Positions 54,796 to 60,933 of a stretch of 64,000 nucleotides of DNA are shown one piece after another. Under the pieces are notes generated by a model. That model made no database searches, was not told the origin of the DNA, and worked only from the letters and a program-made list of their open reading frames with translations. The position numbers and the translations under genes were made by a program. This DNA is from the human T2T-CHM13v2.0 reference genome, Homo sapiens, in the NCBI RefSeq assembly GCF_009914755.1, contig NC_060929.1. One strand, 5' to 3'. How positions within the stretch are numbered: position 1 is the first letter of the stretch; each line of letters starts with the position of its first letter.

Positions 54796-55002
54796 AACCA
54801 CTGTGATTAGCTTGGCCATTTTGGACATGGATGTTTTGGTCTATGTCAGTGAAGGTATATGGAAATGTCTGTTTAGTAAAAGAGACATAAGAAGATAATC
54901 TTGGCAAGTAATAGTCTTATGACTTCCTGCGTGTTTTTCCTTAAGCAAAAGAATGTCATAGGTCAGGTGTAGTAGCTTACACCTGTAATCCCAGCACTTT
55001 GG

Positions 55003-56275
55003 GAACCGGGGAGGTGGAGCTTGCAGTGAGCCGAGATCATGCCACTGCCCTCCAGCCTGGGCGACAGAGCAAGACTCCGTCTCAAAAATAAAATAAAATA
55101 AAAGGACACATAAGTGGCAGATGAGTGGCAGAGATAAGGCCACTCTCTCTTCTTTTTTTTTTTTTTTGAGATGGAGTCTCGCTCTGTCACCCAGGCGTGA
55201 TCTCGGCTCACTGCAACCTCCGCCTCCCGGGTTCAAACAATTCTCCTGCCTCAGCCTCTGGAGTAACTGGAATTACAGGCGCCCACCACTACGCCCAGCT
55301 AATTTTTGTACTTTTAGTAGAGACGGGATTTCACCATGTTGGCCAGGCTGGTCCCGAACTCCTGACCTCAGGTGCTCCGCCCGCCTCGGCCTCCCAAAGT
55401 GCTGGGATTACAGGCGTGAGCCACCGCACCCGGCACACTCTCTGTTCTAAGTGGAACTGCTCACCTGGCTGCCCATCTGTCCCTCCCACTCTAGTCTCTG
55501 TGACTTGCCTTTTGAGCACACTAATTCCTCTACCTGGAACATTCTCTTCCCAACTTTGCATCTGGAGGTTCATATTCTAAAATATTGCCAGTGCTTCAAG
55601 ACTGAGCTGAGATACTATCTCTTTCATTTATTATTATTTTTTAAAAGCTCCTTAAGGCCGGGCGCGGTGGCTCACACCTGTAATCCCAGCATTTTGGGAG
55701 GCCGAGGCAGGCAGATCACCTGAGGTCAGGAGTTTGAGACCAGCCTGGCCAACACAGTAAAACCCCGTCTCTACTAAAAATACAAAAACTAGTCTGGTGT
55801 GGTGGCACACGTCTGTTATCCCAGCTACTCAGGAGGCTGAGGCAGGAGAATGGCTCAGACCCAGGAGGCGGATGTTGCAGTGAACCCGATATCACGCCAT
55901 TGCACTCCAGCCTGGGCAACAGAGCAAGACTCCATCTCAAAAAAAAAAAAAAAAACTAGGCTGGGCGCGGTGGCTCACGCCTGTAATCCCAGCACTTTGG
56001 GAGGCCGAGGTGGGTGGATCACGAGGTCAGGAGATCGAGACCATCCTGGCTAACATGGTGAAACCCATCTCTACTAAAAATACAAAAAATTAGCTGGGCG
56101 TGGTGGCATGTGCCTGTAGTCCCAGCTACTAGGGAGGCTGAGGCAGGAGACTCACTTGAACCCAGGAGGCAGAGGTCACAGTGAGCCGAGATCACGCCAC
56201 TGCACTCCAGCCTGGGTGACAGAGCAAGACTCCATCTCAAAAAAAAAAAAAAAAAAAACTCCTTTAATTTCTCTT
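55003..56275 (+). repeat. Left arm of a ~1.3 kb inverted duplication
   Basis: Reverse complement of 59362-60682, including non-Alu sequence; mirrored ORFs 55451..55723(+)/59951..60223(-) and 55331..55573(-)/60101..60343(+). Confidence 0.96.
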
Positions 56276-58570
56276 CTTCTCTAAGAAGTGGCTTCCCCCT
56301 ATGCTGTATATACTTCAAAAACAATTTAAATCAGCCAGGTGTGGTGGCTCATGCCTGTAGTCCCAGCACTTTAGGAGGCTGAGGCTGGCAGTTCACCTGA
56401 GGTCAGGAGTTCAAGACCAGCCTGGCCAACATGGCAAAACCCCGTCTCTACTAAAAGTACAAAAAAATTAGCCGGGCATGGCCTGTAATCCCAGCTACTC
56501 GGGAGGCTGAGGCAGAAGAATTGCTTGAACCCGGGAGGCGGAGGTTGCAATGAACCAAGATTGCGCCACTCTACTCCAGCCTGGGCCACAGAGCGGGACT
56601 TCTGTCTTTAAAAATAATAATAATAATAATAACAATTTAAATATTTTGACCCCCTGAAGTTAAATCACTTTCTAACTTGTATTACTTCAATCGTGTGTGG
56701 GTCCCTCCACCTAGGTTTTATTCTCTCTGAGGGTGCCCCTCCATCTGATTCCTCTGCCCCTCCTTCTGGGACTTTGCACTTCTGTTACTTTAGCTAAGTA
56801 AATGAATAGTATTCAATGCTTCAGTACTATCCCTAAGTACTTAAGAGTTGAATTATGCTGCTAATGATATTAATGAGAAACTCACTTGCTTTCTGTGTTT
56901 ATTTCTTCAAACGTGTTCCTTATAGTAGCAGTTTAACAAGGAAGTTTTCTTTACTCCTTTCCCCTAGACAAAGGGAAAAAATAACAGGAAACCAACCCAC
57001 AGAAAACAATGAAGATGAATATCAAATATTTGTTCCTTTCTATATAAGAGGAGTTAGGCACAAAATTAGGTCATCATACTAACACTTGAAAGAATCAGAG
57101 TTTCTTTGAGTTTTAAGAATTTCCAGGAGAGAAATTTGGCTGTTTTTATTGAAGTGGAGTTGAAACATAGCTGCTTAACAGAAATTAGTAGATATTATTC
57201 CAAATATCCACAAGCGTCATCTAGAAGCTGCTTTCAAACTTATGATCCAGGAACTTGGTCTGATGCTGCAGGCAGTTAAGTTGCTTTCTTGTTGTGCTTA
57301 CATAGACATTGTACACTGTAAAAAAATAAATAGAAGATGCCACTTATTAAGTACCGTCTATGTGTCACAAACACAGATGTTTTATACAGTTGTCACTGCA
57401 ATATCTTAAATATTATCTTCATTTCATAGACAGGGAAACTAAGTTTCATAGATGTTTAAAACGTGCCCCAGGCCCGGTGCAGTGGCTCATGTCTTAATCC
57501 CAGCACTTTGGGAGGCTGAGGCAGGCAGATCATGAGGTCAGGAGTTCGAGACCAGCCTGGCCAACATGGTGAAACCCTGTCTCCACTAAAAATACAAAAA
57601 TTAGACAGGCGTAGGGGCACATGCCTGTAATGCCAGCTACTCAGGAGGCTGAGGCAGGACAATCACTTGAACCTGGGAGGCGGCGGTTGCAGTAAGCCGA
57701 GACTGCGCCAGTGCACTCCAGCCTGGGCGACAGAGCAAGACTCCATCTCAAACTGGGAAAAAAAAAATAAAGTGCCCCAAAGTATACAGCTAGCAAAAAA
57801 TCAGGATTCAAAAACCCATGTCTTTCTGACCCCCACACCCATGCCATCATAGACTTATTTATTTAGGTACCTGCCTCCTATGCCGAACTGTGAGGTCCTT
57901 ATGTCCACATCACTTACCCTAGTGCTTGGTGCATGAGTATCGAATACTATTGAATACCTTCCAGCTTCCCTTACCCCTTTCATCTTACCTCACTAAATCC
58001 TTTTTTTTTTTTTGAGACAGAGTCTCACTCTTATCGCCCAGGCTGAAGTGCAGTGGTGCAATCTTGGCTCACTACAACCTCTGCTACCTGGGTTCAAGCA
58101 GTTCTTCTGCCTCAGCCTTCCAAATAACTGAGATTACAGGCGCCTGCCACCACGCCTGGCTAATTTTGTAGTTTTAGTAGAGATGAGGCTTCACCATCTT
58201 GGCCAGGCTGGTCTTGAACTCCTGACCTCGTGATCCACCCGCCTTGGCCTCCCAAAGTGCTGGGATTACAGACGTAAGCCACCTTGCCCAGCTACCTCAC
58301 TAAATCTTACCTCACCAAATTTTATGTTTGTATTCACTCTGTACTTCCATTTATGTGAGACAATACATTGCCTTATTATTTAAACTACTTTAAACTTGTT
58401 TTTTGTAGCATTGAGCTGAAATCATCCTGATATAGGAAGCATAGGCAGCTACTAAATATCCATCGAATAATATTTATTTTGTGCCAGGAATAAGGCCATT
58501 TTACATACAACCCTTGCAAGGTGGGTATTACCATCACTTCCATTTAATTTTCATTTAAAAACTTTTTTAT

Positions 58571-58910: not shown

Positions 58911-59361
58911 ATCACCTCCACTTTATAAATAAGGAAATTAAGCCTCAGAAGTTTAAGTTATTTATTTAAAGTGTCATAGAGCTGGTAAATACTGAATTTG
59001 GGAATCAAAGTAGAATCTTTTGATACCCTGGCTCCCTTACCCACTATACTGATGAAGGGAAGAAGGTGAAGGTGCTCACTCTGTGCTGTGATGCTTTTTT
59101 TTTTTTTTTTTTTTTTTTGAGGCAGGGTCTCACTCTGTTGCCCAGGCTCTGGAGTGCAGTGGCACCATCATGGCTTACCACAGCCTTGACCTCCCCAGGC
59201 TCAGGTTATCCTCCCACCTCAGCAGCCCTCTTGAGTAGCTGGGACCACAGGCACCCACCACCATGCCTGGCTAATTTTTTTGTAGAGACCGGGTTTTGCC
59301 ACATTGCCCGGGTTGGTCTCCAACTCCTGGACTCAAGCAGTCTGCCCACTTTGGCCTCCCA

Positions 59362-60682
59362 AAGAGAAATTAAAGGAGTTTTTTTTTGTTTTTTTATGTG
59401 TTTTGTTGTTGTTGTTGTTGTTTTGAGAAGGAGTCTTGCTCTGTCACCCAGGCTGGAGTGCAGTGGCGTGATCTCGGCTCACTGTGACCTCTGCCTCCTG
59501 GGTTCAAGTGATTCTCCTGCCTCAGCCTCCCTAGTAGCTGGGACTATAGGTGCATGCCACCACGCCCAGCTAATTTTTTGTATTTTTAGTAGAGATGGGG
59601 TTTCACCATGTTAGCCAGGATGGTCTCGATCTCCTGACCTCCTGATCTGCCCACCTCGGTCTCCCAAAGTGCTGGGATTACAGGCATAAGCCACCAGGCC
59701 TGGCCCAGTTTTTTTGTTTGTTTGTTTGTTTTTGAGATGGAGTCTTGCTCTGTTGCCCAGGCTGGAGTGCAATGGCGTGATATCGGGTTCACTGCAACAT
59801 CCGCCTCCTGGGTCTGAGCCATTCTCCTGCCTCACAGCCTCCTGAGTAGCTGGGATAACAGACGTGTGCCACCACACCAGACTAGTTTTTGTATTTTTAG
59901 TAGAGACGGGGTTTTACTGTGTTGGCCAGGCTGGTCTCAAACTCCTGACCTCAGGTGATCTGCCTGCCTCGGCCTCCCAAAATGCTGGGATTACAGGTGT
60001 GAACCACCGCGCCCGGCCTTAAGGAGCTTTTAAAAAATAATAATAAATGAAAGAGATAGTATCTCAGCTCAGTCTTGAAGCACTGGCAATATTTTAGAAT
60101 ATGAACCTCCAGATGCAAAGTTGGGAAGAGAATGTTCCAGGTAGAGGAATTAGTGTGCTCAAAAGGCAAGTCACAGAGACTAGAGTGGGAGGGACAGATG
60201 GGCAGCCAGGTGAGCAGTTCCACTTAGAACAGAGAGTGTGCCGGGTGCGGTGGCTCACGCCTGTAATCCCAGCACTTTGGGAGGCCGAGGCGGGCGGAGC
60301 ACCTGAGGTCAGGAGTTCGGGACCAGCCTGGCCAACATGGTGAAATCCCGTCTCTACTAAAAGTACAAAAATTAGCTGGGCGTAGTGGTGGGCGCCTGTA
60401 ATTCCAGTTACTCCAGAGGCTGAGGCAGGAGAATTGTTTGAACCCGGGAGGCGGAGGTTGCAGTGAGCCGAGATCGCGCCTGGGTGACAGAGCGACTCCA
60501 TCTCAAAAAAAAAAAAAAAAAAAAAAAGAAGAGAGAGTGGCCTTATCTCTGCCACTCATCTGCCACTTATGTGTCCTTTTATTTTATTTATTTATTTTTT
60601 TTAGATGGAGTTTCGCTCTGTCACCCAGGCTGGAGGGCAGTGGCATGATCTCGGCTCACTGCAAGCTCCACCTCCCAGGTTC
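59362..60682 (-). repeat. Right arm of the ~1.3 kb inverted duplication
   Basis: See left arm. Both arms share the same unusual internal Alu deletion (CACCCAGGCG.GATCTC, lacking TGGAGTGCAGTGG). Confidence 0.96.
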
Positions 60683-60933
60683 ACACCATTCTCCTGCCTC
60701 AGCGTCCCGAGGAGCTGGGACTACAGGCGCTTGCCACCATGCCCGGCTAATTTTTTTGTATTTTTAGTAGAGACGGGGTTTCACCGTGTTAGCCAGGATG
60801 GTCTTGATCTCATGACCTCGAGATCTCTCCGCCTTGGCATCCCAAAGTGCTGAGATTACCAGGCGTGAGCCACCACACCCGGCCTTTTCATTTTATTTTT
60901 AATTTTTATGAGTGTATGCCTCATCTTCTAGAC

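What the first reader, a model, noticed from the sequence alone, without database searches (positions are those of the whole stretch)
54961..60700. Inversion scar: 1.3 kb inverted duplication with a split Alu and microhomology junctions, possibly a still-invertible 3.1 kb segment
Seen: arms 55003-56275 and 59362-60682 are reverse complements around a 3086-bp spacer. At the left outer junction an Alu head (54961-55004, ending CAGCACTTTGGGA) joins abruptly to the last third of a different Alu through a 2-bp GA overlap. At the right inner junction an antisense Alu (59095-59364) stops at TCCCAAAG, lacking exactly the head found at 54961, and joins the arm through a 3-bp AAG overlap. The 8 bp CTTTGGGA/TCCCAAAG occur at both ends. 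Inference: reverse-complementing 55005-59364 and removing the extra arm restores two intact Alus, so one staggered-break or template-switch (FoSTeS/MMBIR-type) event inverted about 4.4 kb and duplicated 1.3 kb plus 8 bp. Established: near-identical inverted repeats of about 1 kb mediate recurrent NAHR inversions that short reads miss. From memory the site lies a few kb upstream of OCLN. The TSD match for the rebuilt Alu is weak.
Basis: partly seen in the sequence, partly recalled or inferred. Interest (0 to 1): 0.8.

Follow-up and report, generated by a model that had tools for sequence, protein, structure and literature searches.

The report
Old inverted duplication flanking flipped segment
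A 1.3 kb stretch of human chromosome 5, about 11 kb upstream of the OCLN gene, was long ago copied in reverse into an old Alu repeat, leaving a 3 kb segment between two mirror-image arms that still exchange sequence; this is a tidy example of a known kind of rearrangement, not a new one.

Summary
Window 55005-56275 and 59365-60682 are reverse complements around a 3086-bp spacer. They share 1269 aligned columns with 27 substitutions (97.9%) and 8 indel runs. The unique core occurs exactly twice in the whole T2T genome.

The right arm is the parent and the left arm is the copy. Both junctions have 2-3 bp of microhomology. Its target-site duplication is not supported.

The best reading is one non-homologous or replicative event that inverted about 4.4 kb and duplicated 1.3 kb. 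A two-step history gives the identical structure and cannot be excluded from one haplotype: an inverted insertion into the Alu, then a NAHR flip.

New here: the arm differences are strongly clustered. The outer 79 bp and the inner ~330 bp differ by about 6-8%. The central 858 columns differ at only 2 sites (0 of 200,000 shuffles reach this). So this is an old duplication with a recent arm-to-arm gene conversion, and the arms still recombine.

Present-day polymorphism could not be tested. The locus is absent from a 612-region catalogue of candidate repeat-mediated inversions. It is a new member of a known kind, of modest interest.

The parts
54961..55004 (+). Head (Alu positions 1-44) of an old, highly diverged Alu ('Alu X'). 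It ends in CTTTGGGA.
   Evidence: Read. It aligns to columns 1-44 of the window Alu consensus with 9 of 44 differences. Only 4 of 60 reference Alu heads are that diverged.
55003..55004 (.). Junction 1: the 2-bp microhomology GA between the Alu X head and the copied third of Alu Y. The join is out of register (Alu position 44 to about 202).
   Evidence: The junction is unique in the genome: the only full-length match of 54880-55130 is itself.
55005..56275 (+). Left arm, the derived copy (1271 bp). It contains the last third of Alu Y (55003-55085), an antisense Alu (55166-55434), unique DNA (55435-55654), two sense Alus (55655-55939, 55957-56240) and 15-17 bp of flank.
   Evidence: It starts inside an Alu that is full length only beside the right arm.
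55084..55943 (.). Homogenised tract of the left arm (partner 59722-60599). It has 2 substitutions in 858 aligned columns and includes a 472-bp exact match at 55199-55670.
   Evidence: 0 of 200,000 shuffles reach 858; 27 of 200,000 reach 472.
56276..59094 (.). Spacer proper, inverted relative to the inferred ancestor. It holds three Alus (56335-56602, 57470-51, 58013-58292), single-copy DNA, a lncRNA exon and a 7SL pseudogene.
   Evidence: The stretch 56640-57460 is single copy in the genome.
57112..57315 (-). Last exon of the lncRNA LOC101928924 (hub table). It has an AG acceptor (CT at 57316-57317 on +) and an AATAAA signal (TTTATT at 57145-57150 on +). The intron of this transcript spans the right arm.
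   Evidence: Hub annotation; sequence read.
58637..58905 (-). 7SL RNA retropseudogene (RN7SL616P) inside the spacer, next to a 28-bp x 2.8 internal tandem repeat.
   Evidence: Rfam RF00017, 93.5 bits against a gathering score of 70; TRF.
59095..59364 (-). Remainder of Alu X (T-run plus body), antisense. It stops at TCCCAAAG, so it lacks exactly the head found at 54961, apart from the 8-bp overlap.
   Evidence: tail differs at 51 of 232 columns from the consensus.
59362..59364 (.). Junction 2: the 3-bp microhomology AAG between Alu X and the sequence that originally preceded the arm.
   Evidence: The left arm's inner end runs on as ...TTTCTCTTCTTC, whose reverse complement ends in GAAGAAG before AGAAATT.
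59365..60682 (-). Right arm, the parental copy (about 1316 bp), continuous with its original right flank.
60601..60885 (-). Full-length Alu Y. Its tail-side third lies in the right arm. The left arm holds only that third.
   Evidence: nhmmer model positions 2-283; read.

Best explanation
A single old rearrangement, non-homologous or replication-based, acted on the ancestral order A - AluX - S - R - rest of AluY - B.

The chromosome was broken, or the nascent strand switched template, at two places. One was inside Alu X with an 8-bp stagger. The other was around the 1.3-kb block R with a 1.3-kb stagger. Rejoining at 2-bp and 3-bp microhomologies gave A - AluX head - R' - S' - AluX tail' - R - rest of AluY - B (primes mark reverse complements). 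That is an inversion of about 4.4 kb flanked by an inverted duplication of 1.3 kb at one end and 8 bp at the other.

The model fits either staggered breaks or two template switches. The right arm kept its original context.

The event is old, roughly 10 million years by inference, and this is a minimum because conversion erases differences. Since then the arms have recombined with each other. A non-reciprocal exchange made the central ~860 bp almost identical, probably within the last one to a few million years.

The pair therefore behaves as a small palindrome that can still undergo non-allelic homologous recombination. A crossover between the arms would flip the spacer, which carries the last exon of a lncRNA.
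For: Shown:
- Arms and spacer.
- The unique core is present exactly twice in the genome.
- The right arm is continuous with a full-length Alu, while the left arm starts at Alu position ~202.
- The junctions carry only GA and AAG in common.
- Rebuilt Alu X is gap-free across the join, with head and tail equally diverged at 20% and 22%, against a median of 12.1% (whole element) and 11.4% (positions 1-44) in 60 reference Alus.
- Differences are clustered: 6 in the outer 79 bp, 2 in 860 bp, 19 in the inner ~330 bp. The CpG density of the centre (24 in 860 bp) is similar to that of the inner part (9 in 332 bp), so composition does not explain the clustering.
- Three TG/CA double differences show that CpGs intact at the time of duplication decayed independently in each arm.
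- The inner Alu pair has 19 shared differences from the consensus, 3 and 10 private ones, and 2 sites where both differ in different ways.

Inferred:
- The single-event model follows the staggered-break scheme in the abstract, passages and figure legends of Ranz et al. 2007 (PMC1885836). There, 17 of 29 Drosophila inversions have inverted breakpoint duplications of 46 bp to about 1.9 kb, often unequal at the two ends.
- The ages use substitution rates recalled from memory.
Against: - One haplotype cannot show that the inversion and the duplication were simultaneous. The two-step history below predicts the same letters.
- The target-site duplication that should flank the rebuilt Alu X is no better than chance: 5201 of 20,000 random pairs reach its score. 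The identity of head and tail as one element therefore rests on position, orientation and matched divergence only.
- No outgroup was available, so polarity (which order is ancestral) is inferred only from the Alus being restored.
- The private differences of the inner Alu pair are uneven (3 against 10). This is unexplained, and could mean conversion from other Alus, which would inflate the age.
Confidence: 0.55

Rival explanations
1. A two-step history. First an inverted copy of R (1.3 kb) was inserted into Alu X, 3 kb away, by two template switches (out at GA, back at CTT/AAG, landing 8 bp behind). This gave A - AluX head - R' - AluX tail - S - R, with an 8-bp duplication around the insert and no inversion. 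Later a crossover between the two arms (NAHR) flipped everything between them and gave today's order.
For: The end product is letter-for-letter what is seen (algebra). The 8-bp CTTTGGGA direct repeat then has a simple meaning, as the duplication flanking an insert. The arms demonstrably recombine, given the conversion tract and the 472-bp exact match. Inversions between repeats of this size are documented as recurrent in humans and apes (passages of PMC6748972; Table S1 part 1 of PMC13629690, for example HsInv0072 with 1.4-kb repeats and a 2.0-kb inversion, and HsInv0040 with 0.75-kb repeats and 3.6 kb).
Against: It needs two events where one suffices. There is no direct evidence that the uninverted intermediate ever existed.
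Confidence: 0.3
2. An RNA-mediated (L1-driven) copy. An intronic piece of the minus-strand lncRNA precursor that runs through the right arm was reverse-transcribed into a nick in Alu X, which would explain the 8-bp duplication. A NAHR flip followed.
For: The left arm read on + has the sense of the lncRNA primary transcript (hub table). An 8-bp direct duplication is within the range of target-site duplications (recalled).
Against: The copy does not end in a poly(A) at the junction: 15-17 non-A bases follow the A-run. The duplicated 8 bp, CTTTGGGA, is not an L1 endonuclease-type T-run/A site (recalled consensus). The lncRNA's present structure depends on the present orientation, so the transcript may not have existed beforehand.
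Confidence: 0.03
3. An artefact or coincidence: the two arms are an assembly error of T2T-CHM13, or merely clustered Alus that happen to align.
For: About three quarters of each arm is Alu sequence.
Against: 241 bp of non-Alu DNA are shared at 100% and occur only twice in the genome. The order of four repeats plus unique DNA is colinear over 1.3 kb. The arms differ at 27 sites and 8 indels, so they are not the same reads placed twice. CHM13 is effectively haploid (recalled).
Confidence: 0.02

Closest known systems
Inversions with inverted duplications at their breakpoints: the staggered-break model (Ranz et al. 2007, PLoS Biol, PMC1885836; abstract, passages and figure legends seen)
   Same: An ancestrally single-copy block appears in inverted orientation at both ends of the inverted segment. 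Duplication sizes are unequal at the two breakpoints (here 1.3 kb and 8 bp), and the size is within their range of 46 bp to about 1.9 kb. There is no long homology at the joins.
   Different: Those cases were polarised with outgroup genomes; here no outgroup was available. The case here is human, lies in Alu-dense DNA, and involves a very small (4.4 kb) segment.
Human polymorphic inversions mediated by inverted repeats (the InvFEST 'HsInv' class; Aguado et al. 2014 PMC3961182, passages; Giner-Delgado et al. 2019 PMC6748972, passages; PMC13629690 Table S1 part 1)
   Same: The architecture matches: repeats of about 0.65-2 kb around a spacer of 1-17 kb, as in HsInv0040, 0061, 0072, 0266 and 0030, all marked polymorphic in Table S1. 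There is a long exact match between the arms.
   Different: No second orientation has been observed for this locus. It is not among the candidate regions of that table in hg38 chr5 69.45-69.49 Mb. Overall arm identity of 97.9% is lower than 'highly identical'.
Replication-based template switching (FoSTeS/MMBIR) giving inverted duplications (recalled; related work PMC11293582 seen only as a search listing)
   Same: Two joins with 2-3 bp of microhomology, a templated inverted copy of nearby sequence, and breakpoints in Alus.
   Different: The disease-associated DUP-TRP/INV-DUP events are far larger and use pre-existing inverted repeats. Here the inverted repeat is the product, not the substrate.
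Sex-chromosome palindromes with arm-to-arm gene conversion (recalled from memory; no paper read here)
   Same: Inverted arms around a spacer, with non-reciprocal exchange keeping part of the arms nearly identical. Spacer flips are expected from crossovers.
   Different: The arms here are 1.3 kb, not tens to hundreds of kb. Only the centre is homogenised. The locus is autosomal and the arms carry no genes.
Alu-Alu mediated rearrangement (in-register chimeric Alu; recalled)
   Same: Junction 1 joins two Alus in the same orientation and yields a hybrid element.
   Different: The join is out of register (position 44 to about 202) with 2 bp in common, so it is not homologous recombination between Alus.

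Membership tests
Inversion with breakpoint inverted duplications (staggered-break type) | The same ancestrally unique sequence is present in inverted orientation at both ends of the segment | tested here: met
   Arms aligned over 1269 columns. The unique core has exactly two copies in the genome.
Inversion with breakpoint inverted duplications (staggered-break type) | One copy remains in its original context and the other is joined to foreign sequence without long homology | tested here: met
   The right arm runs on into a full-length Alu and its flank. The left arm starts at Alu position ~202, joined to Alu X position 44. The joins share 2 and 3 bp.
Inversion with breakpoint inverted duplications (staggered-break type) | An outgroup shows the uninverted, unduplicated order | not testable with these tools
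   No primate genomes are held. The ape T2T supplement was unreadable.
Repeat-mediated (NAHR) polymorphic inversion | Inverted repeats with a long uninterrupted identical stretch flank the segment | tested here: met
   A 472-bp exact match at 55199-55670, and 858 columns with 2 differences. The length needed for recombination (a few hundred bp) is recalled, not tested.
Repeat-mediated (NAHR) polymorphic inversion | Both orientations observed among individuals | not testable with these tools
   Only one haplotype is held. There is no entry at hg38 chr5 69.45-69.49 Mb in Table S1 of PMC13629690. There were no hits in the held supplements of PMC12350169 or PMC13721702. Porubsky et al. 2022 is not held. 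The hg38 place was computed from gene coordinates recalled from memory.
Segmental duplication (at least 1 kb, at least 90% identity; definition recalled) | Length and identity thresholds | tested here: met
   1323 alignment columns at 94.1% including gaps. About three quarters is Alu, so repeat-masked pipelines may not list it.
Alu-Alu homologous recombination product | Chimeric Alu joined in register | tested here: not met
   Head positions 1-44 are joined to positions 202-284.
L1-mediated retrocopy | A poly(A) at the 3' end directly followed by the target-site duplication | tested here: not met
   The A-run 56240-56259 is followed by 15-17 non-A bases before the join.
Intact Alu X before the event | Target-site duplication flanking the rebuilt element | tested here: inconclusive
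   The best local score of the flanks is reached by 5201 of 20,000 random 18-mer pairs. The element is about 21% diverged, so decay is expected.

The most novel reading that the evidence does not exclude
The pair of arms is an active autosomal mini-palindrome that still flips its 3.1-kb spacer recurrently in humans, or differs in orientation among great apes. The flip would switch the last exon of the lncRNA LOC101928924, 11.5 kb upstream of OCLN, on and off its strand. It has escaped the inversion catalogues because three quarters of each arm is Alu. Supporting this reading are the recent 860-bp conversion tract and the 472-bp exact match, which show physical exchange between the arms on the human lineage.
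Probability: 0.25. Interest if true: 0.5.

Novelty: new member of a known kind. Interest (0 to 1): 0.3.

Why it matters
It is a clean, base-resolved human example of how an inverted repeat capable of later recombination is born. A non-homologous or replicative event creates the arms, and the arms then start to convert each other. That links the two classes into which human inversions are usually sorted, non-homologous and repeat-mediated. If the spacer does flip in the population, it would be an uncatalogued small inversion next to the tight-junction genes OCLN and MARVELD2, and it would alter a lncRNA. Otherwise it is a fixed, ordinary scar.

Tried and rejected
- Literature on polymorphism at this place:
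  - 'MARVELD2' with 'polymorphic inversion' found 0 papers.
  - Aguado 2014 lists only distal chr5 inversions.
  - PMC13629690 has no main-text mention of chr5, 5q13, OCLN or MARVELD2. Its Supplemental Tables have no number beginning 6945-6949 that is a chr5 coordinate. A search for the word 'chr5' found nothing because the table writes chromosomes as bare numbers.
  - The held supplements of Logsdon 2025 (one file unreadable) and of the inversion benchmark gave no hit for the hg38 or T2T coordinate prefixes.
  - The ape T2T paper's held supplement has no text.
  - Porubsky 2022 is not held.
  - These absences are weak. The hg38 place was derived from recalled gene coordinates, and only held files were searched.
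- Target-site duplication of rebuilt Alu X: not better than chance.
- Paralogous copy elsewhere, for example in the nearby SMN-region duplications, that might preserve the ancestral order: none.
- Alu-Alu NAHR and L1 retrocopy origins: rejected on register and on the missing terminal poly(A).
- Composition as the cause of the clustered differences: rejected, because CpG density is similar in the centre and the inner part.
- Rfam found only the 7SL pseudogene and weak 7SL-like hits in one Alu of each arm.

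
Full report
**1. The observation**

- The repeat finder reports inverted arm pieces at 55150-55839/59835-60524 (690 nt, 98%), 55838-55956/59716-59834, 55941-56066/59598-59723 and 56061-56257/59406-59602.
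- BLAST joins them into one minus-strand alignment, window 55003-56275 against 60682-59362. It has 1323 columns and is 94.1% identical counting gaps.
- A global alignment gives 1269 aligned columns, 27 substitutions (97.9%) and 8 gap runs. Six of the gap runs are length changes in A/T-rich tails or dinucleotide slips.
- About three quarters of each arm is Alu: four Alu pieces per arm.
- The arms are nonetheless not an Alu coincidence. The 241-bp non-repeat core 55420-55660 is 100% identical in both arms and has exactly two matches in the 3.1-Gb assembly.
- The spacer core 56640-57460 is single copy.
- The only full-length match of the stretch across junction 1 (54880-55130) is itself. The right arm matches it only from query base 121, which is window 55000.

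**2. Anatomy and polarity**

- The right arm runs on, beyond 60682, into the rest of a full-length antisense Alu at 60601-60885, nhmmer model positions 2-283.
- The left arm begins inside that element: 55003-55085 aligns to model positions 202-284.
- The right arm is therefore in its original context, and the left arm is the derived copy.
- To the left of the left arm lie 44 bases of an Alu head (54961-55004).
- To the left of the right arm lies an antisense Alu (59095-59364) that stops at TCCCAAAG, eight bases beyond the point where the head stops when read in the Alu's own sense.
- Junction 1 shares GA. Junction 2 shares AAG with the sequence that continues past the inner end of the other arm.
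- Junction 1 joins Alu position 44 to position ~202. It is out of register and so is not a product of homologous Alu-Alu exchange.

**3.

- In a script I joined the head to the reverse complement of the headless Alu, less the 8-bp overlap. I aligned it with a majority consensus of 60 near-full-length Alus from elsewhere in the window.
- The join is gap-free.
- The head differs from the consensus at 9 of 44 columns (20%) and the tail at 51 of 232 (22%).
- The 60 reference elements have a median of 12.1% over the whole element (12 of 60 at 18% or more). Over positions 1-44 the median is 11.4%, and only 4 of 60 heads are at 20% or more.
- Position, orientation and matched high divergence thus agree with one old element split in two.
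- The expected target-site duplication is not supported: 5201 of 20,000 random 18-mer pairs score as well. This is unsurprising for an element that diverged, but it leaves the point unproven.

**4. What event**

- Write the inferred ancestor as A - Xhead Xtail - S - R - rest of Y - B. Today's order is A - Xhead - R' - S' - Xtail' - R - rest of Y - B, where primes mark reverse complements.
- This is the pattern of the staggered-break model of Ranz et al. 2007. [quoted passage not shown] The sizes may differ between the two ends, and ranged there from 46 bp to about 1.9 kb (PMC1885836; abstract, passages and legends). Here the two staggers would be 8 bp and 1.3 kb.
- Two template switches during replication give the same product: out at GA, copying R', S' and Xtail' on the other strand, then back at AAG.
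First, R' alone is copied into Alu X by two switches, the return landing 8 bp behind, so that CTTTGGGA flanks the insert as a direct repeat. Later, a crossover between R' and R flips Xtail plus S. The letters are identical.
- I prefer the single event on parsimony (0.55 against 0.30). Only outgroups or other haplotypes can decide.
- An L1-mediated retrocopy is unlikely, because 15-17 non-A bases follow the A-run at the end of the copy.

**5. New finding: the arms have exchanged sequence recently**

- The 27 substitutions are not spread evenly. There are 6 in 55008-55083, 2 in 55084-55943 (at 55198 and 55671) and 19 in 55944-56249.
- The longest exact run is 472 bp, reached by 27 of 200,000 random placements. 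The longest run with at most two differences is 858 columns, reached by 0 of 200,000, with a maximum of 733.
- CpG density is similar in the centre (24 in 860 bp) and in the inner part (9 in 332 bp), and the centre holds two whole Alus. Mutability therefore does not explain the pattern.
- In the inner part, three adjacent TG/CA double differences show that CpGs intact at duplication decayed separately in each arm.
- Relative to the consensus, the inner Alu pair has 19 shared differences, 3 private to the left, 10 private to the right, and 2 sites where both differ in different ways. The two central Alu pairs have 1 private difference each.
- The simplest reading is an old duplication whose centre was later homogenised by non-reciprocal exchange (gene conversion) between the arms.

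**6. Dating (inference; rates and Alu subfamily ages are recalled, not computed here)**

- The unconverted parts differ by about 6%, with heavy CpG decay, or about 3% per lineage in Alu sequence. With the roughly 0.2-0.25% per million years commonly used for Alus, this gives on the order of 10 million years.
- This is a minimum, because earlier conversions would have erased differences.
- The event also post-dates the Alus that it copied. By the motif GAGATCGAGACCATCC, the inner one looks like the young AluY lineage. That label is recalled.
- Two differences in 858 bp put the last homogenisation at about a million years, with a wide Poisson range up to a few million years. It probably lies on the human lineage.

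**7. Surroundings**

- The spacer carries the last exon of the lncRNA LOC101928924 (57112-57315, minus strand; hub table).
- On the + strand, CT at 57316-57317 gives the AG acceptor, and TTTATT at 57145-57150 gives an AATAAA some 33-38 nt upstream of the exon's annotated 3' end at 57112.
- The first exon lies beyond the window, so the intron spans the right arm. A flip of the spacer would put this exon on the wrong strand. This is an inference.
- The spacer also holds a 7SL retropseudogene (58637-58905, Rfam 93.5 bits) and three Alus.
- By the hub's table, OCLN starts 11.5 kb to the right of the right arm and MARVELD2 ends 31 kb to the left.

**8. Is it still invertible, and is it known?**

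- The architecture lies within that of documented recurrent human inversions. In the roughly 70 rows of Table S1 of PMC13629690 that I read (part 1 of 43), I picked out 13 regions with repeats of 0.6-2 kb. Five of them are marked polymorphic: HsInv0030, 0040, 0061, 0072 and 0266.
- Giner-Delgado et al. report recurrence for nearly all inversions between highly identical repeats, extending to apes (passages).
- A 472-bp exact match and a recent conversion tract show that these arms do pair and exchange.
- Against a common polymorphism, no row of that 612-region catalogue lies at hg38 chr5 69.45-69.49 Mb. The other sources I could open had no hit either.
- Those searches are limited. The hg38 place rests on recalled gene coordinates. 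Porubsky et al. 2022 and InvFEST were not within reach. The ape supplement could not be read.
- I put the chance that both orientations exist in humans, or differ among great apes through re-inversion, at about 0.25.

**9. Verdict**

It is well supported for the split Alu and the microhomology joins.
- The simultaneity of inversion and duplication, the polarity and the polymorphism remain untested.
- The added result is the clustered identity, which shows recent arm-to-arm conversion.
- It is a new, apparently uncatalogued member of known kinds: an inversion with breakpoint duplication that has become a small recombining inverted repeat. Interest is modest.

Noticed in passing
window 54687-54765: A 23-bp unit (AAGATTTGTTGTTCTAAGACATC) repeated 3.4 times at 94% identity, just left of the structure. 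It is a minisatellite of unknown variability.
   Followed up: no
window 54426-54574: A compound TA/TG microsatellite (periods 2, 8, 22-34), about 400 bp left of junction 1. Such tracts can adopt non-B DNA and might have contributed to breakage, but this was not examined.
   Followed up: no
window 58615-58694: A 28-bp unit repeated 2.8 times at the edge of, and inside, the 7SL retropseudogene RN7SL616P. It is an internal tandem duplication of the pseudogene.
   Followed up: partly
window 59365-59378: The first 14 bases of the right arm resemble the Alu sequence that would have continued Alu X past junction 2. nhmmer carried the Alu alignment through to model position 22, at window 59378. This is possibly homeology that helped the join, or possibly chance.
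   Followed up: partly
window 55318-55434 and 60240-60356: The left monomer of one Alu in each arm just reaches Rfam's gathering score for metazoan SRP RNA (70.3 against 70). This is an expected Alu/7SL cross-match, not a gene.
   Followed up: yes
window 55957-56240 vs 59424-59705: The private changes in the inner Alu pair are uneven (3 in the left copy, 10 in the right), and the left copy keeps more CpGs (9 against 5 in the inner segment). This could be chance, a different methylation history, or conversion of the left copy by another Alu.
   Followed up: partly
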